DNA from: an uncultured Thermoleophilia bacterium | GTDB lineage: Bacteria > Actinomycetota > Thermoleophilia > UBA2241 | Direction of reading: 5' to 3' | NCBI GenBank assembly: GCA_963709845.1 | Contig: CAVPXV010000005.1 | Coordinates: forward strand, 439,032-503,031 | Length of the DNA: 64,000 bases | Shown here: positions 2,704 through 62,563 of the stretch, piece by piece | Layout of the letters: every line of letters starts with the position of its first letter | How positions within the stretch are numbered: the first letter of the stretch is position 1 | Notes under the pieces: model-generated | Database searches by the model: none | Told to the model about the DNA's origin: nothing | Seen by the model: the letters and a program-made list of their open reading frames with translations, nothing else | Made by a program: the position numbers and the translations under genes

Positions 2704-2704
2704 C

Positions 2705-3196
2705 ATGAGCAAGGAATCGTCGTTCGACATCGTCTCCCGGGCGGACCTCAACGAGGTGCGCAACGCGGTCAACATGACGCAGAAGGAGATCGCCACCAGG
2801 TACGACTTCAAGAAGAGCGCCAGCGCCGTGACGCTGGAGGGCGACGCCCTCGTGCTCGTCTCCGACAACGAGGGCAAGCTCAAGCAGGTCGTCGACGTCC
2901 TCGAGGACAAGCTGGTGCGCCGCAAGGTGCCGCTCAAGGCCCTGCAGTACGGCCGGATCGAGGAGGCACTGGGGGGCACGGTGCGCCAGCGCGTACCGAT
3001 CGCCCAGGGCATCCCCGATGAGAAGGCGAAGGCGATGAACAAGCTCCTGCGCCAGCGCTTCAAGAAGGTGAAGGTGCAGATCCAGGGCGACACCGTGCGC
3101 GTGTTCTCGTCGAGCAAAGACGAGCTCCAGGCCGCGATGGCGGCGCTGCGCGAAGAGGACTGGGGCATCCCCCTTCAGTTCGTCAACTATCGCTGA
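2705..3196 (+). CDS. yajQ: YajQ/UPF0234 family nucleotide-binding protein
   Basis: 163 aa with MSKESSFDIVSRADLNEV...DALVLVSDNEGKLKQV...GDTVRVFSSSKDELQ. Full-length match to the DUF520/YajQ fold pattern. Confidence 0.85.
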   Translation: MSKESSFDIVSRADLNEVRNAVNMTQKEIATRYDFKKSASAVTLEGDALVLVSDNEGKLKQVVDVLEDKLVRRKVPLKALQYGRIEEALGGTVRQRVPIAQGIPDEKAKAMNKLLRQRFKKVKVQIQGDTVRVFSSSKDELQAAMAALREEDWGIPLQFVNYR

Positions 3197-18659: not shown

Positions 18660-18781
18660 CGGCCTGGCGCGTCAGTCGACGGCGCGGGGACTCGCGGGGA
18701 GGCTCGACGGCTCCTCTCACAGCCCGGACCGCAGCCTGAGAGCGCCGCCTCGAGCACCTCAGTGGCCGCGGTGCGCCTCGA

Positions 18782-18810
18782 TTGCAGCGCACGATAATCT
18801 CCGTTATGTA
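18782..18810 (+). promoter_or_regulatory. Candidate promoter (TTGCAG-N17-TATGTA) in a 620-bp gene-free gap; possible sRNA or orphan promoter
   Basis: The only AT-rich patch in the 18660-19280 gap (cgataatctccgttatgtaaag). No protein-like ORF lies downstream on the + strand before the convergent apt gene. Confidence 0.2.
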
Positions 18811-19280
18811 AAGCTGGCCAGTGAGAGGCGCCGATGCCCGCCTCAGGCCGCGCGGCTTGGCCGTCTCCCCTCCCGACTCTGCCACCGGATGCAGTGGCGG
18901 CTGTATCGACTCGTCCCTGCGGGCGTGCGGGCTTCTTCGCGCGGAGCGCGTGCGTTGCTCCGGGTCCTTACGGCCGCGAGCCACCGGAGCTGCGCGCGCC
19001 ACGTCGCCGGACTTCCGCGTCGTCTCAGGCGGCGCGCATCCATCTCGCCCCCGCGTTGATCCCCCAGCGTCGGCCGGCGGTTACGTGCGCCTCGGATCCG
19101 ACAATCTTGCGGGAGATCGTCCAGGGCAGCGGCGGATGCTGGGACGGCGGTCCCAGGGTGACTGAGCACGCACTCGCCGTCGACGACCCGGCGGGTAGGC
19201 GCTGCGCGGCCGCGAGACGAACAGGTGTTCGCCTCTGGATCGGACGGACGGCTGCTCGCCGGCGCCGCGCGGCGCCGCGA

Positions 19281-19808
19281 TCAGTACGTGATCAGGCTGA
19301 AGACGTCGTAGCCCTTGATCTTCTCGCGGCCGTTGAGGTCGGCGAGCTCGATCAGGAAGGCACAGCCGACGACCGTGCCTCCGAGCTGCTCGACGAGGTC
19401 GATCTTCGCCTTGGCGGTGCCGCCGGTGGCCAGGAGATCGTCGTGGACGAGCACGTTCTGCCCCGGCTTGATGGCGTCCGCGTGGATCTCGAGGCGATCG
19501 GTGCCGTACTCGAGGTCGTATTCCGCCGCGATCGTGCGGTACGGCAGCTTGCCCGGCTTGCGCGCGCAGACGAAGCCGGCGCCGAGGCCGTAGGCGACCG
19601 CGGCGCCGAGGATGAAGCCACGCGCCTCCGCCCCGAGCACGACGTCGACGTGCTTGCCGGTGCCGTACTCGATGATGCGGTCGACGGCCTCACGCAAGGC
19701 TACGGGGTCCTGCAGCAGCGGCATGATGTCGCGGAAGAGGATGCCCTCCTTGGGGAAATCCGGGATGTCGCGTACGTGCTTGCCGAGGTCGATGCGGCCG
19801 TCGGTCAT
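19281..19808 (-). CDS. apt: Adenine phosphoribosyltransferase
   Basis: 175 aa with the PRPP-binding VLVHDDLLATGGTA motif and an Apt-type N-terminus. Confidence 0.9.
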   Translation of the reverse strand: MTDGRIDLGKHVRDIPDFPKEGILFRDIMPLLQDPVALREAVDRIIEYGTGKHVDVVLGAEARGFILGAAVAYGLGAGFVCARKPGKLPYRTIAAEYDLEYGTDRLEIHADAIKPGQNVLVHDDLLATGGTAKAKIDLVEQLGGTVVGCAFLIELADLNGREKIKGYDVFSLITY

Positions 19809-19823: not shown

Positions 19824-20522
19824 TCAGCGGCCGTCGCGGCCGCCGCTGAGGCGCCGCACGCCGCGCGCGAGCAGCAGCTGGCGCAGCTGCGTGGTCGCCT
19901 GGACGATGTCGTCGAGCTGCTCGAGGCCCTCACGCCGGCGCTCCGGCCGGTTCGACTTGAGCGCCGGCAAGAGCACCTGCTCGATGAGCCCGACCTCACG
20001 GTCGATGGCGCTCTTGAGGACGCGCAGGTTCTTGGGGCGCAGGCCGAGCGGCGCCAGCTGAGCCGCGGCGCCGACGATGCCGGCGTCGGTCTCCGTGTAG
20101 CGCCGCACGCCGCTCACCTGGCGCGCGCGCACCAGCTCGTACTCCTCGAGCTCGCCGAGCAGCGCCTGGTCGGCGCCGGTCATCTGCACGATCTCCTCGG
20201 CGGTGTACTCGCGCTCCTCGCCCACGCTGAGGAGCGCCGTCTTGCGCAGGCTCTGGCGCGCCGCCGGCGGGCTCGCCGGGCTGCGCTCGAGCTCCCGGCG
20301 GATGACCTTGAGCGGCAGGTACTCGTCGCGCTGCATGGCGAGCACGCGCACCAGCCGGCTGAAGTCGTCCTGCGAGTAGAGGCGGTACCCTGACTTGGTG
20401 CGGCGCGGCGTCACCAGGCCCTGTTCCTCGAGATAGCGGAGCTTGCTGACGCTGATGTCCGGGAACTCGCCGTGCAGGCGCTCCACGACGGCGCCGATGG
20501 TGAGCAGTTTCTCGTCGCCCAC
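19824..20522 (-). CDS. MerR-family transcriptional regulator
   Basis: N-terminal MerR HTH (LLTIGAVVERLHGEFPDISVSKLRYLEEQGLVTPRRTKSGYRLY). Sits downstream of an FHA gene, as in the actinobacterial GarA-FtsR arrangement. Confidence 0.8.
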   Translation of the reverse strand: MGDEKLLTIGAVVERLHGEFPDISVSKLRYLEEQGLVTPRRTKSGYRLYSQDDFSRLVRVLAMQRDEYLPLKVIRRELERSPASPPAARQSLRKTALLSVGEEREYTAEEIVQMTGADQALLGELEEYELVRARQVSGVRRYTETDAGIVGAAAQLAPLGLRPKNLRVLKSAIDREVGLIEQVLLPALKSNRPERRREGLEQLDDIVQATTQLRQLLLARGVRRLSGGRDGR

Positions 20523-20549: not shown

Positions 20550-21005
20550 TCATGGCGCGAGGTAGGTGAGCTTGTACTTGCCGATCTGGATCTCGTCGCC
20601 GTCGCTCAGCACGGTGCGCTCGCCGCGGCGGCGATTCACGTACGTGCCGTTGAGGCTGCCCTCGTCGACGATGACCCACTCCCCGCCCTCGCGCTTCACG
20701 ATCGCGTGATTGCGTGAGACGGTGACGTCGTCGAGGAAGATGGTGGCGTCCGGGTGGCGCCCGATGGTCACCTGCTCGCCGCGCAGCGGGAAGGTCTCGC
20801 CGGCGCGGCCGCCGCCGCTGCGGAAGACGAGGCACGCCTCGTCCCCGGCGGTCGCGGTGAAGGCGTTGGCTTCGGCGTCCTCGTCGCCGGGCTGGTAGCT
20901 CATCGTCGTCGCGGAGTCGGGCTGGCCGCCGATGAGGCTGGCGCCACAGCGCACGCAGAAGCTGGCGCCCTCGGAGTTCCGCAGGCCGCACTCGGGGCAG
21001 AACAC
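20550..21005 (-). CDS. FHA-domain protein with N-terminal zinc ribbon
   Basis: GTG start after GGAGGA. CPECG...CVRCG zinc ribbon, then FHA core (GRHPDATIFLDDVTVSRNHAIV...GSLNGTYVN). The upstream ORF-track extension is spurious. Confidence 0.8.
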   Translation of the reverse strand: MFCPECGLRNSEGASFCVRCGASLIGGQPDSATTMSYQPGDEDAEANAFTATAGDEACLVFRSGGGRAGETFPLRGEQVTIGRHPDATIFLDDVTVSRNHAIVKREGGEWVIVDEGSLNGTYVNRRRGERTVLSDGDEIQIGKYKLTYLAP

Positions 21006-21006
21006 C

Positions 21007-21303
21007 TCAGTCCTCCGTGGAGCCCTCGGGGGCCGGCGAGCCCTCGCCGGCCGTCTCCCCCGTCTCCGGCATCTGGCCGGCCAGGATGCGCGACAGCCCG
21101 CGCACATCGTCGGCCGAGATCACCGACTCGCCCTCCGCGTGCTTGCGCTGCAGGCGCATCACGAGCTCGGCGCGCAGGATGTCAAGCTTGCCTTGAAGGA
21201 TGCGCCGCTGGCGCGAGATCTCGCGCTCTTCCGCCTCGAGCTCGGCGACCAGCGCGCGGAGCTCGTCGTCAGACCGTGAGACCAGGTCCACGATATCGTC
21301 CAT
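21007..21303 (-). CDS. Small acidic coiled-coil protein (hypothetical), translationally coupled to the FHA gene
   Basis: 98 aa with heptad-like LRALVAELEAEEREISRQRRILQGKLDIL. Its stop is 1 nt from the FHA gene GTG start. Confidence 0.5.
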   Translation of the reverse strand: MDDIVDLVSRSDDELRALVAELEAEEREISRQRRILQGKLDILRAELVMRLQRKHAEGESVISADDVRGLSRILAGQMPETGETAGEGSPAPEGSTED

Positions 21304-21360
21304 GGCGCATCTCCTCTTGGTAGGTCGAGGGCTGGGCTCAGAAGCGTATCGCAGCGGGCG

Positions 21361-21957
21361 TCAAGGTTCAAGCTCAGGTTGAGGCCGCTCCTCGGCGACC
21401 TCTGGGCCCGCCGCAGGCGCCTCCACACGCACGATGCCGCGTGCCACGAGCCTCTCCATGGCCTCGAGGGCGACGCGCTCGTCCAGCGAGCCGCCGCCGC
21501 TGACGGCCGCGACGACTTCGCCGAGGTTCTGAGGGCCAAGGCCGAGGCGGGCGACGAGCGCGGCCTCGGCCTCACCCTCAGGGTGACCGCCGATGAGGGT
21601 CACGTTCGCCCCGGAGGGCAGCTCCCGGCGAAGCTGCTGCAGCTCGTCGAGGCGGCGCATGCCCTCGATCAGCAGGGACTCGAGCGGGAGGGCCTCGTCG
21701 TCGGCCGCCTCCCCCACCTCTCCCTGCGGATCGAAGTCGAACGTGCCCGTCGAGACCGCGAGGACGGCCAGGAAGGCGGACGCGCCGCTGAGGTGCCCAC
21801 AGGACGCGCCCACGAGGAGGCCGGCGCGGAAGACGAGCGCGCCGGCGAGCGCGCCGCCGGCGTCGCAGACCGTGAGGAGTCCCGTCTTGCCGCCGAGCGC
21901 CGTCATCTGCACGAGGTCCGGCAGCGGGAGCTCGGAGAGGCTGCCCTTCAGGCCCAT
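21361..21957 (-). CDS. DUF4388-domain protein
   Basis: MGLKGSLSELPLPDLVQM N-terminus matches the DUF4388 pattern. Divergently oriented from mglB/mglA. The TTG-extended ORF to 22005 is less likely. Confidence 0.65.
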   Translation of the reverse strand: MGLKGSLSELPLPDLVQMTALGGKTGLLTVCDAGGALAGALVFRAGLLVGASCGHLSGASAFLAVLAVSTGTFDFDPQGEVGEAADDEALPLESLLIEGMRRLDELQQLRRELPSGANVTLIGGHPEGEAEAALVARLGLGPQNLGEVVAAVSGGGSLDERVALEAMERLVARGIVRVEAPAAGPEVAEERPQPELEP

Positions 21958-22159
21958 GGCGGCCGCGGGCGTGCGTTGCGTGTCAGAGGCGTCATGTGCT
22001 ACCAAGCTTCGCAGCGCGGCGCCGGCTTCCTGCCGCCGGCGCCGGCCTCGCGACCAGGGCGGCCGCAGGTCTCATGCTTTCGCGCCCAAAAGTCGATACA
22101 GGGGACGCAGGGCGGGCTGGTATACTTCGCTGGCAACGCACGTGTATTGGAGGGCGTAC

Positions 22160-22645
22160 GTGGCGCGACGCAAAGGACTCGTCATCAACGATCGGCAGCT
22201 CGACCGCTGCGACGAGCTCCTGCAGAAGCTCAAGGACGTCTCCGGGTCCAGCTTCCTGGCGCTGATCAGCACGTCCGGGCAGCCGATCACCACGGCCGCC
22301 GACGCCTACCACCCAGAGACGCTGTCTCTCGCCTCGCTCGCGGCGAGCTCGTTCGCGGCCACGCAGCAGCTCGCCAAGATCCTCGACGAGAGCGAGTTCA
22401 CGCTCCTCTTCCACGAAGGCAAGGCCCTCAATCTGCACGTCTCCCAGGTCAACGAGCAGGTGCTGCTCATCGTCACCTTCGGGCGCGACACGCAGGTCGG
22501 CAAGGTGCGCCTCTACACGCAGCGCGCCATCGAAGTGCTGCGCCAGATCTTCGAAGGTCCTGACGACGGCACCACGCCGACGATGGACGCCGATTTCGAG
22601 GCCACCGCCGGCGACGCCATCGACGACCTGTTCAAAGACGTCTGA
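22160..22645 (+). CDS. mglB: Roadblock/LC7-domain protein, MglB-like GTPase-activating partner
   Basis: GTG start after GGAGGG. Roadblock fold pattern (LQKLKDVSGSSFLALISTSGQPI...LLIVTFGRDTQVGKVRLY). Immediately upstream of mglA. The long 5' ORF-track extension is a GC artefact. Confidence 0.7.
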   Translation: MARRKGLVINDRQLDRCDELLQKLKDVSGSSFLALISTSGQPITTAADAYHPETLSLASLAASSFAATQQLAKILDESEFTLLFHEGKALNLHVSQVNEQVLLIVTFGRDTQVGKVRLYTQRAIEVLRQIFEGPDDGTTPTMDADFEATAGDAIDDLFKDV

Positions 22646-22655
22646 GAGCCTGCCG

Positions 22656-23234
22656 ATGCCGCTGATCAATTTCGCCGCCCGCGAGATCAACTACAAGATC
22701 GTCTACTACGGCTGCGGGCTCTGTGGGAAGACCACGAACCTGCAGTACGTGCACCGCAAGATCAACCCCGACGCGCGCGGCAAGCTGGTGAGCATCGCCA
22801 CCGAGGAGGAACGCACCCTCTACTTCGACTTCCTCCCGCTCACGCTCGGCACCGTCAAGGGCATGCAGACGCGCTTCCATCTCTACACCGTGCCCGGCCA
22901 GAGCTACTACAACGCCAGCCGCAAGCTCGTGCTGCAGGGCGTCGACGGCGTCGTCTTCGTGGCCGACTCGCAGATCACACGCCTGGACGAGAACGTCGAG
23001 AGCTACCTCAACCTCTGGGACAACCTCCTGGGCCAGGGCGACGACCTCACCAAGCTGGGGTTCGTCGTGCAGATGAACAAACGGGACCTCACCGACATCT
23101 TCTCGGTGGAGGACCTCAACGAGCTGCTCAACCACACCCAGTCGCCCGTCGTCGAGTCGAGCGCGGTCAGCGGCGAGGGCGTGTTCGAGACGCTCAAAGT
23201 CGTCTGCAAGCAGGTCATCGCCAAGACCGGCTGA
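22656..23234 (+). CDS. mglA: Ras-like small GTPase MglA
   Basis: End-to-end similarity to Myxococcus/Thermus MglA (INYKIVYYGCGLCGKTTNLQYV, FHLYTVPGQSYYNASRKLVLQGVDGVVFVADSQ, NKRDL). Confidence 0.9.
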   Translation: MPLINFAAREINYKIVYYGCGLCGKTTNLQYVHRKINPDARGKLVSIATEEERTLYFDFLPLTLGTVKGMQTRFHLYTVPGQSYYNASRKLVLQGVDGVVFVADSQITRLDENVESYLNLWDNLLGQGDDLTKLGFVVQMNKRDLTDIFSVEDLNELLNHTQSPVVESSAVSGEGVFETLKVVCKQVIAKTG

Positions 23235-23278
23235 GGGCGGCCGCGGCGTCAGCCGCACCGGCCGCCCGGGGCGGGCAT

Positions 23279-25078
23279 TCACGTCCCGACGCGCTTCACC
23301 CAGTCCATGGGCGCGTAGTGCGACACGAACGCGTCGCGGAACAGCAGCGCGCCGGCGGCGCTGCGCACCGTCCGCTCCACCCTGATGCTGCGTCCGTCGA
23401 TGCCCTGCTGCCAGCGTACGAGGCCCCGCCCCAGGTCGCTGTCGTAGATCACGCGCGGGTGGGCCTTGCCGTAGGCGGGTTTGCGCACGTCGTAGAAGGC
23501 GCCCGTGACGTAGGTCACCTTGCGGCCTGTCCTGCCGATGATCGCCACGGTGACGTGGTCGCCCTGCACCCAGCTGCGGATGGTCAGCGGCCTTGCGGTG
23601 TCGTTGCGGAACCTGAAGTCGGCGCTGCCCCAGGAGACCGTCGCGTCGCGCCCGATCGGGTAGTGCGAGATGTACAGCGAATGCGCGTGCCGCTCGACCA
23701 CGGGCAGCCCCGCGAAGAAGACGGCGTTGAACAGCGTCGTCGCGTACTGGCAGATGCCGCCCCCCACCCCCTGCCGCAGCACGTTGTCGGCGGCGATCAC
23801 CGGCGCGTAGTCGAAGCCCCGGTTGGTGGTGCGCGGCCCGAGCGCCGCGTTGAGCGAGAACGTCGCGCCGGGGCGCACCACGGTGCCATCGACGATGCCG
23901 GCGGCGAGCGCGATGTTCTTGACGCGCGTCGTGTTGCGCGGGTCGAAATAGGTCACGAACTGCGAGCCCTGTGAGGCAAAGCCGTCCGCCGCGAGGGCGC
24001 CGGCCGTGAGCGCAGGCACGGCGGGCTGGACGGCCACGAAGACGCTGCGCAGGCCGCCGCCCGTGACGGCGGCGTCGAGGTCGCCGAGCAGGACGGCCAT
24101 GTCGAGGACCTGCCCCTCGCGGCTCGGCGTGATCGTGACGCTGCCGTCCGAGTGCACGACGAGCCGGGCGTCGACCGGCTTCACCTCGGCCGCGGCCAAC
24201 AGCCGGTGGAGCGCGGCCCTCGCCCGGTCGTTGCGGAACGTGAGCGGGTACTCCGAGGCGTCGGCGCCGGTGTTGACGCTCAGCATCGCCGCCATCTGCG
24301 CCGGGCCGAGGACCACGGACGTGCCTCGGTAGCGCAGCGTCACCGGGCGAGAAAGGTAGGAGGCCGCCGCCGCGGCCCGCGACTGCGCGACGGCCGTGCT
24401 CACCTGCGGCGGCACGGCCTTGAGCGGCAGCGGCCCCGAGTAGCTCCGGCCGGCGGCGACGCTGGCGCGGATGGCGCGCTCGAGCGCGAGCGCGTCCACC
24501 GTGCTGCCCGCCGCCGAGGGCACGACGTCGACGACGCCGCCGCGCACGGTGAGGCGCGCGTCCCGGGCGGGCACGTCCACCTGCTTGCGCACCGCCTCGA
24601 GGGCGGCGTCGTAGGCGCCGGCCGAGACGTCGAGCGCGGGCGCCAGCACGGCGCCGCTCCCGGGCAGCCACACGCTGACGCCGAGCGGCAGCCGGTGACG
24701 GCCGGCGGCGAGGGCGGCACGCACGGTCGCCGCGGTATCGAGCTTCATGCCCAGCGTGCCGAGGGTGAACGAGACCGGCGCGCTGCCCGCGCGCTGCAGG
24801 CGCACCGCGTCGACGCGCGGCGCCAGCTCGCGCGCCAAGGTCGCCCGCGCTTGCGCGGCGCTCTGCCCCTGCAGGCTCACGCCGGCCACCGTGACCCCGT
24901 CGCCGACGCGGCCGTGCATCGCCACCTGGACGGCCGCGAACCCGCTCAGCACGACGAGGAACACGAGGCCGAGCGTCAGCGTCCAAGCGTGCCGTCGGTA
25001 CCAGCCTGCGAACCGGCGTAGGCGACCCGGTGCGGCGGCCTGCACCTCAGGAGTCATGCGATCGTCCATGGCGCTCAT
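23279..25078 (-). CDS. VanW-family protein (N-terminal TM plus repeated peptidoglycan-binding-like domains, C-terminal VanW domain)
   Basis: VanW core GGGICQYATTLFNAVFFAGLPVVERHAHS and FSLNAALGPRTTNRGF. TM helix LTLGLVFLVVLSGFAAV. The ORF-track 1515-aa readthrough is an artefact. Confidence 0.8.
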   Translation of the reverse strand: MSAMDDRMTPEVQAAAPGRLRRFAGWYRRHAWTLTLGLVFLVVLSGFAAVQVAMHGRVGDGVTVAGVSLQGQSAAQARATLARELAPRVDAVRLQRAGSAPVSFTLGTLGMKLDTAATVRAALAAGRHRLPLGVSVWLPGSGAVLAPALDVSAGAYDAALEAVRKQVDVPARDARLTVRGGVVDVVPSAAGSTVDALALERAIRASVAAGRSYSGPLPLKAVPPQVSTAVAQSRAAAAASYLSRPVTLRYRGTSVVLGPAQMAAMLSVNTGADASEYPLTFRNDRARAALHRLLAAAEVKPVDARLVVHSDGSVTITPSREGQVLDMAVLLGDLDAAVTGGGLRSVFVAVQPAVPALTAGALAADGFASQGSQFVTYFDPRNTTRVKNIALAAGIVDGTVVRPGATFSLNAALGPRTTNRGFDYAPVIAADNVLRQGVGGGICQYATTLFNAVFFAGLPVVERHAHSLYISHYPIGRDATVSWGSADFRFRNDTARPLTIRSWVQGDHVTVAIIGRTGRKVTYVTGAFYDVRKPAYGKAHPRVIYDSDLGRGLVRWQQGIDGRSIRVERTVRSAAGALLFRDAFVSHYAPMDWVKRVGT

Positions 25079-25134
25079 TGTACGGCACGGGTTCGCGCAC
25101 GGCGGCCCGCCACCTGCACCGGCGCCCGCTGCGC

Positions 25135-28446: not shown

Positions 28447-28524
28447 CGGCGTGTGGCGCAGCCTGGTTAGCGCACTAGTCTGGGGGACTAGGGGTCGCCG
28501 GTTCAAATCCGGCCACGCCGACCA
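28447..28524 (+). tRNA. tRNA-Pro (anticodon GGG)
   Basis: Manually folded cloverleaf: 7-bp acceptor CGGCGTG/CACGCCG, D-arm GCGC/GCGC, anticodon stem CTAGT/ACTAG with loop CTGGGGG, T-arm GCCGG-TTCAAAT-CCGGC, encoded CCA. Confidence 0.85.
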
Positions 28525-32961: not shown

Positions 32962-33786
32962 ATGGCACGCCCACTCTGGAAGGGAAGCATCAGTTTCGGA
33001 CTCGTCTCCATCCCCGTCCACGTGTACTCGGCGACCCGCGCGCGAGCGCTGCGCTTTCGTCAGCTCGATCGTCGCGACAAGTCCCCGATCCGCGAACAGC
33101 GGATCAACGAGACGACCGGCCGCGAGGTGCTCTGGGAGGACATCGTCAAGGGCTACGAGTACGAGAAGGACTCCTTCGTGATCGTCGAGCCCGAGGATTT
33201 CGAACGCGCCAACGTCAAGGCGACCGAGACCATCGAGATCATGCAGGCCGTGCCGCGCGACGCGCTGGCGCCTGAGTACCTCGAGACTCCGCTGTTCGTG
33301 GTGCCGACCAAGGCCGGCATCAAGGCCTACCACCTGCTGCGCGAGACCCTGCGCCACAGCGACCGGCTGGCGATCGCGACGATCGTCATGCGCGGGCATC
33401 AGCACCTGGCCGCGCTGATCCCCCACGAGGACGTCATGATGCTGGAGCTCCTGCGCTTCGCTCACGAGCTCAAGGCGCTCTCCGATCTCGACCTCGACTA
33501 CGACATCTCGGCGCCGGAGACGAGGCCCGCCGAGATCGAGATGGCGGAACAGCTGGTCGCGGCGCTCGACGCACCGTGGCAGCCCAAGCAGTACCGCGAC
33601 GAGTACCGCGACGACCTGCTGGCGTTCATCGAGCGCAAGGCGAAGAGCGGCGAGAAGCCGGTGCGCAGCGCCGGCCGCGCCGACCGCGGCGAGCCCGCCG
33701 AAGTGGTGGACATCATGGAGCTGCTCAAGCAGAGCGTCGGCGAGGCGCGCGGCCGCGGCCGCTCGCGCCAGCGCAAGGCGAGCTGA
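32962..33786 (+). CDS. ku: Non-homologous end joining protein Ku
   Basis: MARPLWKGSISFGLVSIPVHVYSAT N-terminus and full Ku core. Confidence 0.9.
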   Translation: MARPLWKGSISFGLVSIPVHVYSATRARALRFRQLDRRDKSPIREQRINETTGREVLWEDIVKGYEYEKDSFVIVEPEDFERANVKATETIEIMQAVPRDALAPEYLETPLFVVPTKAGIKAYHLLRETLRHSDRLAIATIVMRGHQHLAALIPHEDVMMLELLRFAHELKALSDLDLDYDISAPETRPAEIEMAEQLVAALDAPWQPKQYRDEYRDDLLAFIERKAKSGEKPVRSAGRADRGEPAEVVDIMELLKQSVGEARGRGRSRQRKAS

Positions 33787-33801
33787 CGAGCAGGCTCAGG
33801 G

Positions 33802-36372
33802 ATGAGCCCGCTCGAGACATACCGCGACAAGCGCGACTTCGAGAAGACGGCGGAACCCGAGGGCCGTGCGTCGCGGCGGCGCTCGCGCGCCGCCGAAGCG
33901 GGCGGCGCCTTCGTCATCCACAAGCACGCGGCGCGCCGGTTGCACTACGACCTGCGCCTGCAGATGGACGGCGTGCTGCGCAGCTGGGCGGTGCCCAAAG
34001 GGCCCAGCCTGGACCCCGCGGTGAAGCGCCTCGCCGTCCACGTCGAGGACCATCCCCTGGAGTACGGCGCGTTCGAGGGGGTGATCCCCAAGGGCGAATA
34101 CGGCGGAGGGACGGTCATGATCTGGGACGCCGGCCTCTGGGAGGCGATCGGCGACGCGCCGGCCGGCTACCTCCGCGGCGAGCTCAAGTTCCGTCTCGAC
34201 GGTCAGCGCCTGCACGGCGCCTGGGTGCTCGTGCGCCTCAAGGGCCGCTCGGAGTCGGGAGAGGGCGCCGGAGACGGCCGCGACTGGCTGCTGATCAAGG
34301 AACGCGACGCCGAGGCGCAGCCGGGCGGCGCCGACCCGTGGGGCGACGAGGACCGCAGCGTGACGAGCCGGCGCACGATGAGCGAGATCGCGGCGGCCAG
34401 TCCACCGCCGGCGGCGCGCGGGCAGGCGTCGCGCACCGCCTCGCGCCGGCCGCGCACCGGTGGGCGGTCCTCCCCACCGCCCGCCGCGGCGAGCGTCACG
34501 CTGGCCACGCTCGTCGACGGTCCGCCCGACGGTGACGACTGGCTGCACGAGATCAAGTTCGACGGCTACCGCATCCTGGCGCGCCTGGACCACGGCCACG
34601 TGACGCTGCTTTCGCGCAACGGCCTCGACTGGACGCACCGCTTTCCGACGCTGGCCAAGGAGGTGGCGGAGCTGGAGACGGACGGCGCCCTGCTCGACGG
34701 CGAAGTCGTCGCCTACCGGGCGGACGGCGTCAGCGATTTCGGCGCCCTGCAGCGCGCCTTGAGCGAGGCCGACGACCGCAGCCTGACCTACATGGCGTTC
34801 GACCTCCTGCACGCCGACGGCGCCGACCTGCGGCGGCTGCCGCTGGCGAGGCGCAAGGCGCGCCTCGCCGAGTTGCTGCGAGCGGGAGAGGCCGGCGGCT
34901 CGGGCATCATCCGCGTCAGCGACCACGTCGCCGGCCACGGGGCGGCCTTCTACGCGGAGGCCTGCCGCCTCGGGCTCGAGGGCGTCGTCTCCAAGCGCGC
35001 CGACAGCGCCTACGCCGGCCGGCGCTCGCGCTCCTGGCTCAAGAGCAAGTGCGGCAAGCGTCAGGAGTTCGTCGTCGGCGGCTTCACGGACCCTGCCGGC
35101 AGCAGGACCGGGTTCGGCGCCCTCCTCGTCGGCGCCCGCGAGGCCGACGGCAGCCTGCGCTTCGCCGGCAAGGTCGGCTCCGGCTTCAGCGACGCCGACC
35201 TTCGGCGCCTGGCGCCGCGCCTGAAGGCCGCGGCGCGCCGGTCCTCGCCGTTCGCCGCGGCCGCCACGGTGCGCGGCGCGCACTGGGTCACGCCGAGACT
35301 GGTGGTCGAGGTCGCGTTCGCGGGCTGGACGAACGAGGGACGCCTGCGCCAGCCCGTGTTCAAGGGCGTGCGCGAGGACAAGCCGGCCGCGGCCGTGCGC
35401 CGCGAAGGCGCGGCCGCCAAGGCGTCCGCGCCCGCGAAGCCGCCGGCGGACCCGGACGCGGGTGCCGGCAAGCGCCCGAAGGCCGGCGCCCCTGTCTCCG
35501 TGGCCGGCGTGAGGATCTCGCACCCCGAGCGCCTCGTGTATCCCGACGTCGGGATGACCAAGCTCGAGGTCGTCAGCTACTACGAGGCGGTCGCGGAGCG
35601 CATGGTCCCGCAGCTCGACGGCCGGCCGCTCACCGTCGTGCGCTGCCCCGAGGGCGCCGCCGAGGAGTGCTTCTTCCAGAAGCGCGCGGCCGCGTCGATC
35701 CCCGACCGGGTCGAGAGGGTGACCGTCGCGCCGGGGCGCGGCAACCGCGGCACCATGGTCTACCCCGCCGTCACGAGCACGGCGGCGCTGATCACGATGG
35801 TGCAGATGGGCGCCCTCGAGTTCCACATCTGGGGATCGCGCGAGGCCACGCTCGAGGCTCCGGACAGGGTGGTGTTCGACCTCGACCCCGCCCCGGAGGT
35901 GAGGTGGGCCGAGGTGCGCACGGCGGCCCTGCGCCTGCGCGACGATCTGCGCGAGCGGGGGCTCGAGAGCCTGGTGATGACGTCCGGCGGCAAGGGGCTG
36001 CACGTCGTCGTCCCGCTGCGGCCGCAGGCCGGCTGGGATGCCGTCGCCGGCTTCGCCCGCGAGGTCGCCGAGGGTCTCGTGGCGCAGTATCCGCAGCAGT
36101 ACGTCGCCACCATGTCGAAGGCAAAGCGCGCCGGCAAGGTGTTCATCGACCACTTCCGCAACGGTCGCGGCGCGACGGCGATAGCGCCGTACTCACTGCG
36201 CGCCCGCGACGGCGCGGCGGTGGCCACGCCTCTGGCGTGGGACGAGCTCGCGAGGACCGCGGGAGGGGCCGTCTGGACGGCGCCGCGGGTGCTCCGCCGG
36301 CTGCGCTCCCGCGAGGATCCGTGGGCTGAGGCGGGCTCGCTCGGCCGGCAGACCTGGAGGCAGCGGCGATGA
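33802..36372 (+). CDS. ligD: Multidomain ATP-dependent DNA ligase LigD (phosphoesterase-ligase-polymerase order)
   Basis: N-terminal PE domain (FVIHKHAARRLHYDLRL), ligase motif I EIKFDGYR, C-terminal primase-polymerase domain (SHPERLVYPDVGMTKLEVVSYYEAVAERM). Confidence 0.9.
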   Translation: MSPLETYRDKRDFEKTAEPEGRASRRRSRAAEAGGAFVIHKHAARRLHYDLRLQMDGVLRSWAVPKGPSLDPAVKRLAVHVEDHPLEYGAFEGVIPKGEYGGGTVMIWDAGLWEAIGDAPAGYLRGELKFRLDGQRLHGAWVLVRLKGRSESGEGAGDGRDWLLIKERDAEAQPGGADPWGDEDRSVTSRRTMSEIAAASPPPAARGQASRTASRRPRTGGRSSPPPAAASVTLATLVDGPPDGDDWLHEIKFDGYRILARLDHGHVTLLSRNGLDWTHRFPTLAKEVAELETDGALLDGEVVAYRADGVSDFGALQRALSEADDRSLTYMAFDLLHADGADLRRLPLARRKARLAELLRAGEAGGSGIIRVSDHVAGHGAAFYAEACRLGLEGVVSKRADSAYAGRRSRSWLKSKCGKRQEFVVGGFTDPAGSRTGFGALLVGAREADGSLRFAGKVGSGFSDADLRRLAPRLKAAARRSSPFAAAATVRGAHWVTPRLVVEVAFAGWTNEGRLRQPVFKGVREDKPAAAVRREGAAAKASAPAKPPADPDAGAGKRPKAGAPVSVAGVRISHPERLVYPDVGMTKLEVVSYYEAVAERMVPQLDGRPLTVVRCPEGAAEECFFQKRAAASIPDRVERVTVAPGRGNRGTMVYPAVTSTAALITMVQMGALEFHIWGSREATLEAPDRVVFDLDPAPEVRWAEVRTAALRLRDDLRERGLESLVMTSGGKGLHVVVPLRPQAGWDAVAGFAREVAEGLVAQYPQQYVATMSKAKRAGKVFIDHFRNGRGATAIAPYSLRARDGAAVATPLAWDELARTAGGAVWTAPRVLRRLRSREDPWAEAGSLGRQTWRQRR

Positions 36373-40781: not shown

Positions 40782-41066
40782 TCACTCCGGCAGCGGCTCC
40801 GCATCGTCCTCGGAGGTCTCGGCGTGGCGCAGGGCCTCGATCTCGCGGAGCCGGTCCTCGAGGCCCTCCAGCAGCGCGATCGCGACCGTGACCTGCTCCG
40901 CGGCGCGGTCCTCGCGCCCTTCCTGCAGGCGCGCGTAGGCCGCGTCGAGCGTCGCGTCCAGCGCCACGCGCACGTGCCCGACCGCCCCGCCGCCGGGGAC
41001 GAGAGCGGGGCGCAGATCCCCCATGCGATCGGCCAGGAGAGCCTTGATCCTCTCGACGTCGTCCAT
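40782..41066 (-). CDS. Hypothetical small acidic protein
   Basis: 94 aa, helical and acidic (MDDVERIKALLADRMGDL...), with non-artefactual composition. Confidence 0.35.
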   Translation of the reverse strand: MDDVERIKALLADRMGDLRPALVPGGGAVGHVRVALDATLDAAYARLQEGREDRAAEQVTVAIALLEGLEDRLREIEALRHAETSEDDAEPLPE

Positions 41067-41592
41067 CGACCCTCTTCCCTTGCGCGTGTGTCCCGAGCGG
41101 AGTCCAGCTTACGGGAAAGACCGCGCCGCGCATCGCACGCTGACGAGCGCCGCTTGCGGCAGTACGCGGCGGCCAGTACGACACCGGCGCGACTCTTGAC
41201 GGCTGCTCGGCGCCGACGTAGGGTTGATAGTGCCGCTCCAGGCAGCCTGCCGCCGCGGCCCAGCGCGTGCGTGACCGGGGATCACGCGCGCCTCGTGAAA
41301 GGGTGCTCGTGGGCACACAGCCCGGCAGTCGCTCTCGCTCTGACCGACTCGCGATCGGGTCGCACCGTCCCACGACGCGCCGACGCCTCTTCCCCATCGC
41401 CCACCACGGGCGCGCCGCGGCGCGCCCGACGCTGTCCGTCATCGCCGAGAGCGCGCCGCGGCGCCCGCGTCCGGACCAGCCGGACGGGAGGTGAGTGCCT
41501 GCCACGCGTGAGTACAGCGCGCCCGGGCGTGACCCAGCCGCTACTCGCGGCTCCGCGCCCACGCGCGAGGGGAACAAAGGGGGAATCGCACG

Positions 41593-43014
41593 ATGAGAAG
41601 GTCACTCGCTCTACTCTGCGTCGTCGCGTGCCTGGCGGTGCTGGCGCTCATGCTCACCGCCGGCTTGGCGTCGGCACAAGACCGCAGCCGCCCGCCCCGC
41701 CGGCGGTCGACTGGACGCAGATGCTCAACTACGACCAGATGTCGCAGATGCTCCAGGACCTGAACACCGCCTACCCGAAGACGACCAAGCTGTTCTCCAT
41801 CGGGCACTCGTGGCAGGAGCGCCAGCTCTGGTGCCTCGAGCTCTCGGCGCCGATCGCGGCCGCCAAGCACAAGACCGGCGTCGCCTTGTTCGGCAACATC
41901 CACGGCGGCGAGCAGCAGGGCGGCATGGGCGCCGCCTACACCGCCTGGTGGCTCGCCACCCGGTACGGCAAGGACGCCACGGCGACCAAGATCCTCGGCA
42001 AGTACAACGTGTACATCGTGCCGCTGATCAACCCCGACGGCTATCAGCGGTCCTTCCTCGTCTCGACGCGCCAGAACATGCGCCCCACCGACGAGAACGG
42101 CGTCGCGGGGCCGTTCAGCGACCCGCGCTTCGACACCAACGGGGACGGCATCATCGCGCAGATCTACCAGCAGAACACGGGGACCCCGCCGGCCGTGGGC
42201 ACGATCGTGACGGGCGCCAACCCCGATCCCACGAACATCACGCCGCTTCAACTCTCCCGCGCAGTCCACGGTGTATGAGAGCCTGAGGCCGTGGCGGCAA
42301 CGGCGTGTGGATGGACCTCGACCGCAACGGCCTCTGGGGCGACGACGACTTCGGCAGCCTCGTCGACATGAACCGCAACTTCGACTACCTGTGGAACTAC
42401 CACGACGTGTCGGTGGTCCCGAACCTGGGCGCCAACGCCTGGACGAGCGCCGGCCCCGACGCGGCCTCCGAGCCCGAGGTCAAGGCCGTCCAGAACTTCC
42501 TCATCAGCCACCCGGTGGCGGCGCTCTCGACGCTGCACACCGGCGAGCAGTCGGTGCTGTGGCCGTGGTGCTACACTCCTGCGCCGACCACCGACGACGC
42601 CTTCATGGGCGCCACGTCCGCGCCATGGCCGCGGCGTGGTCCACGACGACCGGTCGTGGCATGTACACCATGACGTCCTACAACGACTACCCCACCTCCG
42701 CCGAGCTGATCGACTGGGCCTGGGGACGCCTGCACATCCACGCCTACACGCAGGAGGTCTACCAGGGCTACAGCGCCAGCAACCCGGACACCTGGTATCC
42801 GCGCACGACGCCGCCGGACCAGTGGATCTACATGGGCGACTGGCAGGGCCTGCACGAACATCTGGTTCCGCAACACCGGCTCCGCCCAGTTGCAGGGCAA
42901 GGCCTGCCGTTCCAGGACAAGCTGGTGGCCGGCGTCAAGGACAGCTTCGTCGTGATGGCCCTCAGCGAGCCGAACGGGATGGGCGCGATCGTCCCGGACT
43001 GGATCGTCTGGTGA
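41593..43014 (+). pseudogene. Secreted M14-family zinc carboxypeptidase, interrupted by three -1 frame changes
   Basis: Signal peptide in one frame (MRRSLALLCVVACLAVLALMLTAGLASAQ). M14 motifs in three other frames (LFSIGHSWQERQLWCLELS, GNIHGGEQQG, YIVPLINPDGY, DMNRNFDY, later NDYPTSAELIDWAW). Confidence 0.75.
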
Positions 43015-50067: not shown

Positions 50068-50077
50068 GCCGGGCGCG

Positions 50078-52318: not shown

Positions 52319-52323
52319 CAGCG

Positions 52324-52623
52324 TCACGAAGCCACCCTCAGCGCACCCGCGTCGGCCAGGGCGCCCAGCAGCTCCACCACCTCGCGGCTCCCCTCCTGGT
52401 CGAAGCCGTCGAAGCCGCGGCGGAGTTCCGCCAGCAGGTCTCCGACCGTGCGTTCGCCGACCACAAGCCTCCACACGGCAACCGTCGAGCGATTCGCGAC
52501 CCACACCTCGCCGGTGTCCGCGTCGAACAGGATCGCCTCGCCGCCATCTTCCTCCCTGAGCACCCAGCTCGGGTTGATGGTGACTCGCGCGCCCGCGTCC
52601 AAATCGGGTCGATCAGCTCGCAT
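52324..52623 (-). CDS. PqqD-family peptide chaperone (RiPP recognition element)
   Basis: 99 aa with WVLREEDGGEAILFDADTGEVWVANRSTVAVWRLVVGERTVGDLLAEL, the PqqD pattern. Confidence 0.7.
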   Translation of the reverse strand: MRADRPDLDAGARVTINPSWVLREEDGGEAILFDADTGEVWVANRSTVAVWRLVVGERTVGDLLAELRRGFDGFDQEGSREVVELLGALADAGALRVAS

Positions 52624-52676
52624 CGTGCCTCCACTCCCCGCGACTCCTCGACGTCTCGCGCCGGAGTCGCGCTACA

Positions 52677-54306: not shown

Positions 54307-54333
54307 GCTTCAGCGCCAGACCGCCGCTCAGGT

Positions 54334-62528: not shown

Positions 62529-62563
62529 ATTCCCGCCGGTCGCTCTGTCGAAAGGGATCGCCA

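What the first reader, a model, noticed from the sequence alone, without database searches (positions are those of the whole stretch)
21361..23234. MglA/MglB polarity GTPase module with a divergent DUF4388 gene in an actinobacterial-type genome
The mglA product aligns end to end with Myxococcus/Thermus MglA (P-loop GCGLCGKTT, switch regions). It is preceded by a Roadblock/LC7 MglB-like gene and faces a DUF4388 gene across a 200-bp divergent region. The module sits beside the FHA-MerR (GarA/FtsR-like) division-regulator trio and upstream of vanW. In a non-myxobacterial high-GC organism it may steer pili, division-site or cell-pole identity.
Basis: partly seen in the sequence, partly recalled or inferred. 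Interest (0 to 1): 0.6.

Follow-up and report, generated by a model that had tools for sequence, protein, structure and literature searches.

The report
MglA/MglB polarity switch in Thermoleophilia
An uncultured soil actinobacterium (class Thermoleophilia) carries the same small GTPase switch (MglA/MglB) that tells Myxococcus and Thermus which cell pole should carry type IV pili; it is under strong purifying selection, and in related species it lies next to the pilus motor genes and a c-di-GMP-sensing anti-sigma factor.

Summary
Window 21361-23234 holds a PATAN/DUF4388 gene (-), a 202-bp divergent region, then mglB and mglA (+).

- **Identity.** MglA is 59% identical end to end to M. xanthus MglA. 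It has every group-1 hallmark: P-loop, intrinsic Arg53, TVPGQ and NKRD. MglB aligns end to end with solved MglBs, including the C-terminal helix.
- **Source.** The window comes from an uncultured Thermoleophilia genome. Published surveys report only conservon-type (group 2) and group 5 MglA-like GTPases in Actinobacteria.
- **Conservation.** The block apt-ftsR-FHA-rsiG-(PATAN)-mglB-mglA is kept in all 80 related species fetched. MglA dN/dS is about 0.1.
  - The third gene of the "trio" is a single-motif RsiG, a c-di-GMP anti-sigma factor.
  - In at least 10 deeper-branching relatives, pilB-pilT-pilC lie 3.5-9.5 kb from mglBA.
  - One promoter-like motif, TCA(A/T)G-N15-G(T/A)CGATA, which resembles sigma28/WhiG promoters, precedes mglB in 50 sequences and pilB in 10 of 10 loci.
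  - The PATAN protein carries a winged-helix domain and a conserved PQPELE tail. It evolves fast and is often lost.

**Verdict.** This is a canonical MglAB module in a new phylum, most likely steering type IV pili. No pil genes lie in this window, so the function is inferred.

The parts
22656..23234 (+). mglA: group-1 MglA small Ras-like GTPase, 192 aa
   Evidence: PDB phmmer hit to M. xanthus MglA, E 6e-72 over residues 1-189; Thermus MglA E 6e-65. 59% identity to M. xanthus MglA. Motifs: G19CGLCGKTT27, R53-T54, T78VPGQ82, N140KRD. 82-96% identical in 80 Thermoleophilia loci. dN/dS 0.06-0.14.
22160..22645 (+). mglB: Roadblock/LC7 GAP partner of MglA, 161 aa, 10 bp upstream of mglA
   Evidence: Pfam Robl_LC7 E 2e-10. 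PDB MglB 6h5b_B/6izw_B E 8e-19 and Thermus 3t1r E 1e-16, end to end. 32% identity to M. xanthus MglB, with the alpha-2 SLASL..AA..LAK segment and the C-terminal IDDLF helix kept. NCBIfam Thermus-type MglB model scores 81 bits, below its cutoff of 200.
21361..21957 (-). PATAN (DUF4388) plus winged-helix protein, 198 aa, divergent from mglB
22072..22099 (+). Conserved bipartite promoter-like element TCATG-N15-GTCGATAC, 61 nt upstream of the mglB start
   Evidence: Phylogenetic footprint in the intergenic alignment. The motif T[CA]A[AT]G-N14-16-G[ATC]CGATA gives 66 hits in 1.44 Mb against 0-3 in shuffles. Of these, 50 lie upstream of mglB and 10 upstream of pilB. Its geometry and -10 half resemble the sigma28/WhiG consensus TAAA-N15-GCCGATAA.
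22118..22126 (+). Extended -10 element TGGTATACT, the probable housekeeping promoter of mglBA
   Evidence: At least 90% conserved across the aligned loci. Kept as TTGTTATACT or TGTATAAT in the deep clades.
21007..21303 (-). [quoted passage not shown]
   Evidence: Pfam RsiG PF22802 E 5e-14, 52 bits against a cutoff of 27. PDB R. radiotolerans RsiG 7lq2/7lq3/7lq4 E 1e-8; S. venezuelae RsiG 6pfj E 6e-11. The motif E(X)3S(X)2R(X)3Q(X)3D is intact as EREISRQRRILQGKLD. The family is described in PMC8325347.
20550..21005 (-). Zinc-ribbon plus FHA protein, OdhI/GarA-like
   Evidence: Pfam FHA E 7e-21 and Zn_Ribbon_1. NCBIfam OdhI scores 119 bits, below its cutoff of 200.
19824..20522 (-). ftsR: MerR-family regulator FtsR
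   Evidence: NCBIfam TF_FtsR_Actino equivalog, 206 bits against a cutoff of 150, over residues 7-223. Pfam MerR_1.
19281..19808 (-). apt: adenine phosphoribosyltransferase, the left end of the conserved block
   Evidence: Pfam Pribosyltran in the L001 gene calls. Syntenic in all loci with enough flank.
23279..25069 (-). vanW-domain/PG_binding_4 protein, convergent with mglA
   Evidence: Pfam VanW and PG_binding_4 in the L001 gene calls. Syntenic in the loci but absent in L082-L084. A TACAAT -10 lies 7 nt before an ATG in the window clade. Sigma28-like promoters precede it in other clades.

Best explanation
This is a canonical group-1 MglA/MglB G-protein polarity switch. It has been inherited vertically in a large, uncultured branch of the actinobacterial class Thermoleophilia.

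**Proposed mechanism (inferred from the characterised orthologues).**
- MglA-GTP is the ON state that marks one cell pole.
- It hydrolyses GTP with its own Arg53 and Gln82 once a dimer of the Roadblock protein MglB positions them.
- The C-terminal helix of MglB gives a second, allosteric contact.

**Most likely output.** The switch decides at which pole the type IVa pilus motor (PilB/PilT/PilC) works, so it sets the direction of twitching.

**Regulation.**
- mglBA has a housekeeping extended -10 promoter.
- Upstream of that lies a second promoter of the same sigma28/WhiG-like class found in front of pilB in related species.
- The neighbouring gene encodes RsiG, which in sister lineages sequesters sigma WhiG when c-di-GMP is high.
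- I therefore propose that low c-di-GMP co-induces the pilus motor and its polarity switch.

**PATAN protein.** The divergent PATAN plus winged-helix protein is a dispensable, fast-evolving accessory. It is probably an adaptor between the switch and PilB/PilC, or a local transcription factor.

**What is shown.** Gene identities, catalytic motifs, synteny, purifying selection, pil-gene proximity in relatives, and the shared motif.

**What is inferred.** GAP activity, polar localisation, the pilus output, and WhiG/RsiG control.
For: **Identity of MglA and MglB.**
- MglA: E 6e-72 to M. xanthus MglA and 6e-65 to Thermus MglA, end to end; 59% identity.
- R53-T54, TVPGQ and NKRD are kept in all 81 sequences. 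These are the group-1 hallmarks of Wuichet & Sogaard-Andersen 2014.
- MglB: E 8e-19 to solved MglBs, including the C-terminal helix.

**Selection.** dN/dS is 0.06-0.14 for mglA and 0.08-0.29 for mglB.

**Pilus link.**
- pilB (carrying an MshEN c-di-GMP domain), pilT and pilC lie 3.5-9.5 kb from mglBA.
- They sit in the same block, aroE-pilBTC-apt-ftsR-FHA-rsiG-gcvH-mglBA, in L068-70, L072, L073, L075, L079, L082, L083 and L084. MglA in these loci is 78-86% identical to the window's.
- L020, from the window's own clade, has a type IV pilin gene next to apt.

**Shared motif.** 66 hits against 0-3 in shuffles. Fifty precede mglB, and 10 of 10 loci holding pilB have it upstream of pilB.

**RsiG.** The c-di-GMP motif is intact. 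In Rubrobacter, RsiG-WhiG controls type IV pilus genes.

**Precedent from other organisms.**
- The PATAN domain binds PilB1 and PilC in Synechocystis.
- Thermus mglA/mglB mutants keep their pili but mislocalise them.
- M. xanthus MglA recruits PilB through SgmX.
Against: - No pil gene and no whiG lie in the 64-kb window.
- In the window's own clade, pilBTC are not within 10 kb of mglBA. I could not show that this genome has them.
- The motif differs from the canonical WhiG consensus at about 5 of 12 positions. It fails the two-mismatch criterion used for Rubrobacter.
- The pilB copy of the motif lies inside the aroE coding sequence, so part of its conservation could come from coding constraint.
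- The sigma factors found near pilC and alaS are SigF/SigB-like, not WhiG.
- The immediate neighbours (ftsR, FHA, vanW, and DUF881-sbp in relatives) are division and envelope genes.
- Synteny within one class reflects shared descent, so it is weak evidence of functional coupling.
- MglB has Gln where M. xanthus has interface residue Gly68.
Confidence: 0.6

Rival explanations
1. The switch marks cell poles or the division site for growth and division rather than for pili. MglA-GTP would recruit cell-wall or division factors, and the module would act together with FtsR, the GarA-like FHA protein and VanW.
For: - mglBA is embedded in the block that corresponds to the actinobacterial pgsA-DUF881-sbp-DUF881-gcvH-garA-ftsR cluster. 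The mycobacterial gene order is recalled from memory. DUF881-sbp-DUF881 and gcvH are seen in L065, L073 and L081.
- FtsR passes its equivalog cutoff.
- vanW (PG_binding_4) is the convergent neighbour.
- In the window clade, the pil genes are no longer adjacent.
- A rodZ-like gene lies in the window.
Against: - No characterised group-1 MglA acts in division.
- The block is a vertically inherited housekeeping region, so adjacency says little about function.
- The shared motif links mglB to pilB, not to ftsR or vanW in this clade.
- vanW is missing next to mglBA in L082-L084.
Confidence: 0.2
2. The PATAN plus winged-helix protein is a DNA-binding regulator of the divergent mglBA promoter, with the conserved intergenic element as its operator. 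It would not be a pilus-motor adaptor.
For: - The divergent arrangement across a 202-bp spacer is typical of a local regulator.
- PATAN-HTH fusions were noted by Makarova 2006 (recalled from memory; the paper is cited).
Against: - The conserved element persists upstream of mglB in loci that have no PATAN gene there (L061, L067, and a variant in L026).
- The same motif precedes pilB in loci without a PATAN gene (L082-84).
- The element is not palindromic.
- Winged-helix folds also mediate protein and peptide binding; RPA32C, cullin WHB and RRE domains appear in the same hit list.
- The winged-helix domain is the most degenerate part of the window's copy.
Confidence: 0.25
3. It is a conservon-like (Cvn/Mfp, group 2) actinobacterial G-protein system that signals to gene expression. 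It would have nothing to do with polarity.
For: The conservon is the only MglA-like system described so far in Actinomycetota. A Roadblock gene sits next to the GTPase gene.
Against: - No CvnA histidine kinase and no CvnC/DUF742 gene is nearby.
- G4 is NKRD, not the NxFD of group 2.
- The intrinsic Arg finger is present, and group 2 lacks it.
- MglA is 59% identical to M. xanthus MglA.
Confidence: 0.03

Closest known systems
Myxococcus xanthus MglA/MglB front-rear polarity module (PDB 5ymx, 6izw, 6h5b)
   Same: - mglB-mglA operon order.
- MglA 59% identical with identical residue numbering of G21, T26/27, R53, T78 and Q82.
- MglB is a Roadblock protein with the C-terminal helix.
- Type IVa pilus genes occur in the same lineage.
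   Different: - The host is an actinobacterium.
- RomR/RomX, SgmX, FrzS, MglC, RomY and the Frz system were not found or could not be tested.
- No gliding machinery is evident.
- MglB is only 32% identical, with Gln at the Gly68 position.
- The locus is linked to rsiG, ftsR and an FHA gene, and often to a PATAN gene.
Thermus thermophilus MglA/MglB (PDB 3t12, 3t1q)
   Same: A compact MglAB pair in a non-myxobacterial organism that has type IV pili and no Frz system. Mutants keep their pili but lose polar localisation. MglA E 6e-65.
   Different: Different phylum. The Thermus-type MglB equivalog model is not reached (81 bits against 200). The genomic context differs.
Actinobacterial conservons (CvnA-D / Mfp; group 2 MglA family)
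   Same: Same phylum. A small MglA-family GTPase sits next to a Roadblock protein.
   Different: Conservons have a histidine kinase and a DUF742 protein, lack the Arg finger, carry an NxFD G4 motif, and regulate gene expression or gyrase. None of these features applies here.
Rubrobacter radiotolerans (RsiG)2-(c-di-GMP)2-WhiG switch controlling type IV pilus genes (PMC8325347; PDB 7lq2-7lq4)
   Same: A single-motif RsiG with the intact E(X)3S(X)2R(X)3Q(X)3D motif. It comes from the sister class of basal Actinobacteria. Sigma28-like promoters precede pil genes.
   Different: No MglAB was reported there. The promoter motif here deviates in the -35 half (TCAAG or TCATG instead of TAAA). WhiG itself was not located in the sequence available.
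Cyanobacterial PatA-type PATAN regulators (PixG, PixE, LsiR)
   Same: A PATAN/DUF4388 domain, which in Synechocystis binds PilB1 and PilC and sets the direction of pilus-driven movement. PATAN genes are known to sit near group 1 and group 5 mglA genes occasionally.
   Different: No REC domain and no alpha-clip insertion. Instead there is a C-terminal winged helix and a conserved PPQPELER tail. No chemosensory genes are adjacent.

Membership tests
MglA family, group 1 (Wuichet & Sogaard-Andersen 2014) | G1 P-loop GxxxxGK[ST] | tested here: met
   G19CGLCGKTT27, at least 90% conserved in 81 sequences.
MglA family, group 1 (Wuichet & Sogaard-Andersen 2014) | Intrinsic arginine finger next to the G2 threonine | tested here: met
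   E52-R53-T54 aligns with M. xanthus R53-T54.
MglA family, group 1 (Wuichet & Sogaard-Andersen 2014) | G3 motif TVPGQ in place of DxxGQ | tested here: met
   T78-V-P-G-Q82.
MglA family, group 1 (Wuichet & Sogaard-Andersen 2014) | G4 NKxD (not the NxFD of group 2) | tested here: met
   N140-K-R-D.
MglA family, group 1 (Wuichet & Sogaard-Andersen 2014) | Genetic coupling to a co-evolving mglB; single domain without the SofG-type extension | tested here: met
   mglB ends 10 bp before mglA in the window and is adjacent in all 80 loci with enough flank. MglA is 192 aa and aligns over residues 1-189 of M. xanthus MglA. SofG itself was not compared, because no sequence was available.
MglA family, group 1 (Wuichet & Sogaard-Andersen 2014) | MglB-stimulated GTP hydrolysis and nucleotide-dependent polar localisation | not testable with these tools
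   Needs biochemistry and microscopy.
MglB (Roadblock/LC7 GAP of MglA) | Roadblock/LC7 domain | tested here: met
   PF03259, 40.5 bits against a cutoff of 23.
MglB (Roadblock/LC7 GAP of MglA) | Full-length similarity to biochemically proven MglBs, including the C-terminal helix | tested here: met
   6h5b_B and 6izw_B E 8e-19 over residues 7-160. The C-terminal AIDDLF aligns with DIDNLF.
MglB (Roadblock/LC7 GAP of MglA) | MglA-contacting alpha-2 residues (M. xanthus A64 and G68) | tested here: inconclusive
   The A64 equivalent is kept. The G68 equivalent is Gln, in all Thermoleophilia sequences. The role of these residues is recalled from the literature, not read here.
MglB (Roadblock/LC7 GAP of MglA) | NCBIfam equivalog GTPaseActivMglBThm score at or above the cutoff | tested here: not met
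   81.4 bits against a cutoff of 200. It is therefore not a Thermus-type equivalog by that model, but it still belongs to the wider MglB family.
PATAN / DUF4388 (PF14332) | PATAN domain | tested here: met
   64.4 bits against a cutoff of 25; profile positions 1-121 of 122.
PatA-type response regulators | C-terminal REC receiver domain | tested here: not met
   No REC hit. The C-terminal domain folds as a winged helix.
RsiG anti-sigma factors, single-motif type | One E(X)3S(X)2R(X)3[Q/H](X)3D c-di-GMP motif on a coiled-coil helix in a small protein | tested here: met
   EREISRQRRILQGKLD in a 98-aa protein. PF22802, 52 bits against a cutoff of 27. Aligns with 7lq2-7lq4.
RsiG anti-sigma factors, single-motif type | Cognate sigma WhiG in the same genome | not testable with these tools
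   No whiG lies in the window or the fetched flanks. The two sigma genes seen in relatives are SigF/SigB-like. The whole genome could not be searched.
Conservon (group 2 MglA system) | cvnA histidine kinase and cvnC (DUF742) adjacent; NxFD G4; no Arg finger | tested here: not met
   None of these features is present.
Sigma28/FliA/WhiG-dependent promoter | TAAA-N15-GCCGATAA with at most 2 mismatches (criterion of PMC8325347) | tested here: not met
   The window element TCATG-N15-GTCGATAC has about 5 mismatches. Spacing and the CGATA core are kept, and the same variant precedes pilB. It therefore behaves like this promoter class, but membership is unproven.

The most novel reading that the evidence does not exclude
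In Thermoleophilia the MglAB switch may be hard-wired into one ancient supercluster, aroE-pilBTC-apt-ftsR-garA-like-rsiG-gcvH-(PATAN)-mglBA. That arrangement would couple three things: c-di-GMP level (through RsiG/WhiG and the MshEN domain of PilB), cell-division control (FtsR and the FHA protein), and pole identity. The PATAN plus winged-helix protein, with its conserved PQPELE tail, would be a previously unknown MglA effector that turns the G-protein state into transcription or into pilus-motor docking.
Probability: 0.12. Interest if true: 0.75.

Novelty: new member of a known kind. Interest (0 to 1): 0.45.

Why it matters
**Phyletic range.** The 2014 census of 169 actinobacterial genomes found only group 2 (conservon) and group 5 MglA relatives in Actinobacteria. 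A 2026 paper still treats conservons as the phylum's G-protein system. No searchable paper links MglA with Thermoleophilia. This locus therefore extends the classical polarity switch to an abundant, uncultured soil and sediment lineage. It predicts that these bacteria twitch directionally on type IV pili.

**A testable circuit.** The locus suggests a compact circuit: c-di-GMP, RsiG, a sigma28-like promoter, then pilB plus mglBA. It has far fewer parts than the Myxococcus network, and it could be rebuilt in vitro or in Thermus or Myxococcus.

**Annotation.** Pfam sees only 'Arf', and NCBIfam gives no MglA name. These genes will therefore be mislabelled in MAG annotations.

Tried and rejected
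1. **Canonical WhiG promoter in the window.** TAAA-N13-18-GCCGATAA gives no match. Single-mismatch -10 hits are all inside coding sequence.
2. **Generic promoter and terminator scan of 20900-23400.** Nothing found. Rfam found only a tRNA at 28447-28521.
3. **pil or whiG genes in the 64-kb window.** About 45 ORFs were scanned with Pfam and by motif. None was found.
4. **The sigma genes next to pilC (L073) and alaS (L082) as WhiG candidates.** Rejected. Both are SigF/SigB-like.
6. **Matching PilB-bearing contigs to window-clade mglA contigs by contig length.** Matches came only for deep-clade contigs: L068, L070, L075, L079 and L081. Whether the window genome has pilB remains open.
7. **Reading the conserved element on the minus strand as a PATAN promoter.** Rejected. 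The element stays at a fixed position relative to mglB when the PATAN gene is absent. The pilB copy has no minus-strand gene to serve.
8. **The exact source of the window.** The ENA contig L001 is a close relative, 95-100% at the protein level, but not identical.
9. **The small ORF (96-98 aa) between the FHA gene and rsiG in deep clades as a second RsiG.** No similarity found.
Full report
**1. What is in the sequence.**

ORF listing and profile searches confirm three genes at the stated coordinates.
- A PATAN/DUF4388 gene lies on the minus strand at 21361-21957. It encodes 198 aa starting MGLKGS (PF14332, E 1.3e-17).
- mglB lies at 22160-22645 (+) and encodes 161 aa (Robl_LC7, E 2e-10).
- mglA lies at 22656-23234 (+) and encodes 192 aa.

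Against solved structures, MglA matches M. xanthus MglA over residues 1-189 (E 6e-72) and T. thermophilus MglA (E 6e-65). The next best hits, Arf1, have E about 2e-4. Identity to M. xanthus MglA is 111/189, or 59%.

MglB matches M. xanthus and Thermus MglB end to end (E 8e-19 to 1e-16). It is 32% identical to the M. xanthus protein and keeps the C-terminal IDDLF helix. The divergent spacer is 202 bp.

**2. Family hallmarks.**

MglA has G19CGLCGKTT27, R53-T54, T78VPGQ82 and N140KRD. These sit at the same residue numbers as in M. xanthus and are conserved in all 81 related sequences. Wuichet & Sogaard-Andersen use exactly these features to define group 1 of the MglA family: the intrinsic Arg finger and TVPGQ. 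Groups 2-5 lack them. Conservon features are absent: no adjacent histidine kinase, no DUF742 gene, no NxFD motif.

**3. Whose genome it is.**

A scan of one genome per GTDB species found 164 relatives. The best 80 are 82-96% identical and are all uncultured Thermoleophilia/Actinomycetota MAGs. An ENA contig of 554,667 bp (L001) is a very close but non-identical relative.

The rest of the window is core chromosome:
- ftsK, a rodZ-like gene, pgsA, cinA, recA, rny, miaB, miaA, dapF, hflX and dut;
- then apt, ftsR, FHA, rsiG, PATAN, mglB, mglA, vanW, a GMPPB-PGM fusion and a CDP-alcohol phosphatidyltransferase;
- then Ku/LigD, proS, a RiPP-like cluster and an exopolysaccharide cluster.

**4. Conservation.**

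The order apt-ftsR-FHA-rsiG-(PATAN)-mglB-mglA-vanW-GMPPB holds in every one of the 80 loci with enough flank.

| Gene | dN/dS, window against 12 loci |
|---|---|
| mglA | 0.06-0.14 |
| mglB | 0.08-0.29 |
| rsiG | 0.09-0.49 |
| PATAN | 0.43-0.72 |

The PATAN gene is missing between rsiG (or gcvH) and mglB in about ten loci. It is shortened to 110-136 aa in others. The window's copy deviates at 28 of the 98 columns that are at least 90% conserved among 29 homologues; those homologues deviate at 0-18. Fifteen of the 28 changes fall in the C-terminal domain. MglAB is therefore the constrained core, and the PATAN protein is an accessory.

**5. The third neighbour is RsiG.**

The 98-aa gene at 21007-21303 (-), 57 bp downstream of the PATAN gene, hits Pfam RsiG (52 bits against a cutoff of 27). 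It also hits the crystal structures of R. radiotolerans RsiG (E 1e-8) and S. venezuelae RsiG. Its sequence EREISRQRRILQGKLD is a complete E(X)3S(X)2R(X)3Q(X)3D c-di-GMP-binding motif.

Schumacher et al. (PMC8325347) showed three things about single-motif RsiGs. They occur only in Rubrobacteria and Thermoleophilia. They form homodimers that bind c-di-GMP and sigma WhiG. In Rubrobacter the switch controls type IV pilus genes through TAAA/GCCGATAA promoters.

The MerR gene is FtsR (NCBIfam equivalog, 206 bits against 150). The FHA protein is OdhI/GarA-like with an extra zinc ribbon.

**6. Link to type IV pili.**

The window has no pil genes. A motif scan of all fetched loci, followed by Pfam and NCBIfam searches, found the following in the deeper-branching loci L068-70, L072, L073, L075 and L079:
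- pilB (TIGR02538, 655 bits, with an MshEN c-di-GMP-binding N-terminus);
- pilT (pilT_fam, 504 bits against a cutoff of 319);
- pilC;
- a SigF/B-like sigma gene.

These lie 4.5-9.5 kb upstream of mglA. I then started independently from PilB homologues. Three further contigs of 462-732 kb (L082-84) show alaS-ruvX-mltG-aroE-pilB-pilT-pilC, then apt-ftsR-FHA-(orf98)-rsiG-gcvH on the opposite strand, then mglB-mglA. Their MglA is 78-81% identical to the window's and keeps R53 and TVPGQ.

In L065, L073 and L081, DUF881-sbp-DUF881 lies beyond vanW. The whole region thus corresponds to the actinobacterial pgsA...DUF881-sbp-DUF881-gcvH-garA-ftsR cluster (mycobacterial order recalled from memory), with mglBA, PATAN, vanW and rsiG added.

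L020, in the window's own clade, has a type IV pilin gene beside apt. At that position the window has a 620-bp stretch with no convincing ORF.

**7. Promoter architecture.**

An alignment of 61 intergenic regions shows two footprints.
- The first is an extended -10, TGnTATACT (window 22118-22126). It is present in nearly all loci, including the deep clades.
- The second is a bipartite element, CTCATG-N15-G(A/T/C)CGATA(C), at window 22071-22099. Its internal spacing is fixed, but its distance to the -10 varies.

The pattern T[CA]A[AT]G-N14-16-G[ATC]CGATA occurs 66 times in 1.44 Mb, counting both strands. Twenty window-wise shuffles gave 0-3.
- Fifty hits lie 60-110 nt upstream of mglB.
- Ten lie 200-217 nt upstream of pilB, in all ten loci that hold pilB.
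- One perfect TAAA-N16-GCCGATAA precedes vanW in L062.

The pilB copy lies inside the 3' end of aroE. It uses the minority codons CCT and GAT there (GAT makes up 25-39% of Asp codons). This hints at selection on the DNA itself.

Other clades have T(C/A)AA-N15/16-(G/T)CCGATA(A/G) directly upstream of vanW.

The geometry and the CGATA core are those of sigma28/FliA/WhiG promoters. The -35 half differs, and the Rubrobacter criterion of at most two mismatches is not met.

The element stays with mglB when the PATAN gene is absent, and the pilB copy has no minus-strand gene to serve. It is therefore best read as a plus-strand promoter.

**8. The PATAN protein.**

An AlphaFold model built from 30 homologues (pLDDT 86) has the following parts:
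- an N-terminal alpha/beta PATAN domain ending in a long helix (residues 92-112);
- a C-terminal beta-alpha3-beta domain (residues 118-179);
- a disordered linker;
- a short tail that is conserved as PPQPELER in homologues; the window has RPQPELEP.

**9. Most likely mechanism.**

*Shown here:* a complete, strongly constrained group-1 MglA/MglB pair; RsiG next door; pilBTC in the same block in relatives; and one promoter-like motif shared by mglB and pilB.

*Inferred from characterised orthologues:*
- The MglB dimer acts as a GAP that positions R53 and Q82.
- MglA-GTP accumulates at one pole and licenses the pilus extension motor there.

*Inferred from RsiG biology:* high c-di-GMP holds a WhiG-type sigma inactive, and low c-di-GMP co-expresses pilB and mglBA. 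The MshEN domain of PilB adds a second c-di-GMP input.

| Claim | My estimate |
|---|---|
| Identity of the module | about 0.95 |
| Pilus-polarity output | about 0.6 |
| WhiG-type control | about 0.45 |

**10. Comparison with what is known, and novelty.**

The module works like, and by the tested features is a member of, the group-1 MglA/MglB family. It is not a conservon.

In the literature I could search, group-1 MglA has not been reported in Actinobacteria/Actinomycetota. Occasional adjacency of PATAN genes to mglA was already known.

The new points are the phylum, the conserved supercluster with rsiG, ftsR, the FHA gene and pilBTC, the shared promoter motif, and the PATAN-winged-helix-tail architecture. 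I rate this a new member of a known kind, of moderate interest.

**11. Limits.**
- I could not search the whole genome of the window organism. Type IV pili, whiG and the Rom/Sgm partners are therefore untested for this genome.
- Synteny within one class is not independent evidence of functional coupling.
- The sigma factor that reads the motif is unidentified.
- No biochemical claim was tested.

Noticed in passing
window 18660-19280: A 620-bp stretch between a Nudix gene and apt has no ORF with a coding GC3 signature. It has an AT-rich patch near 18790-18830 (…CGCACGATAATCTCCGTTATGTAAAGC…). In the close relative L020, the same position (L020:1915-2454) holds a type IV pilin gene with an N-methylation motif. 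No other fetched locus has that gene.
   Followed up: partly
window about 25069-25082 (-); L062:14704-14731; L030, L044, L045, L048, L050, L052, L053, L059, L060 and L067 upstream of vanW: The vanW promoter type switches between clades. In the window clade, TACAAT lies 7 nt before an ATG, which looks leaderless and suggests that vanW starts at MDDRMTPEV, 12 nt upstream of the shorter call. Other clades carry sigma28-like T(C/A)AA-N15/16-(G/T)CCGATA(A/G). L062 has a perfect TAAA-N16-GCCGATAA.
   Followed up: partly
L053:17008-17035, L059:16559-16586, L024:17687-17714, L044, L048; window 44430-44457 (weaker): A conserved sigma28-like element, TCAAGTT-N-GGGCGATAA, precedes a small XRE-type HTH gene next to proS. 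This gene is a possible further member of the same regulon.
   Followed up: partly
L073:4690-5514; L082:4067-4819 (also L083, L084): Group-3 sigma factor genes sit next to pilC (L073 clade) and upstream of alaS (L082-84). Both are SigF/SigB-like by NCBIfam and PDB comparison, not WhiG.
   Followed up: yes
L073:7831-8121 (-), L082:16483-16779 (-), L083:16561-16857 (-): A conserved acidic ORF of 96-98 aa with no Pfam or NCBIfam hit lies between the FHA gene and rsiG in deep clades. It is not similar to RsiG and is absent from the window.
   Followed up: partly
window 21364-21387 (C-terminus of the PATAN protein): Homologues end in a conserved PPQPELER motif after a variable, disordered linker. 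This looks like a short docking motif. The window copy reads RPQPELEP.
   Followed up: partly
window 48914-56862: A RiPP-like cluster holds NTP_transf_5, a radical SAM gene, SPASM, two PqqD-like genes and an ABC transporter. Several families are split over overlapping ORFs (48914-49441 with 49360-50067; 50078-51223 with 51214-51729). These may be frameshifts or unusual gene boundaries.
   Followed up: no
window 40824-42673: An M14 zinc carboxypeptidase is split into two consecutive ORFs (40824-42278 and 42305-42673). It may be a frameshift or a pseudogene.
   Followed up: no
window 32962-36372: A Ku gene and a full-length LigD gene (phosphoesterase, ligase and primase-polymerase domains) form an NHEJ pair.
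   Followed up: no
window 1960-3196: A rodZ-like gene (HTH_25 plus RodZ_C) and a DUF520/YajQ gene follow ftsK. RodZ suggests MreB-type lateral wall growth, unlike polar-growing Actinomycetes.
   Followed up: no
window 59016-64000: A polysaccharide cluster (Wzz/BY-kinase-like gene, sugar transferase, epimerase/decarboxylase, glycosyltransferase) lies in the part of the window with the lowest G+C, 0.63 against about 0.71 elsewhere.
   Followed up: no
L001 (ENA ERZ25039488 contig_31907) against the window: The only contig that encodes exactly the window's MglA is not identical to the window elsewhere. PATAN and FHA are 98% identical at the protein level, and APRT is 95%. The true source record of the window was not recovered.
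   Followed up: partly
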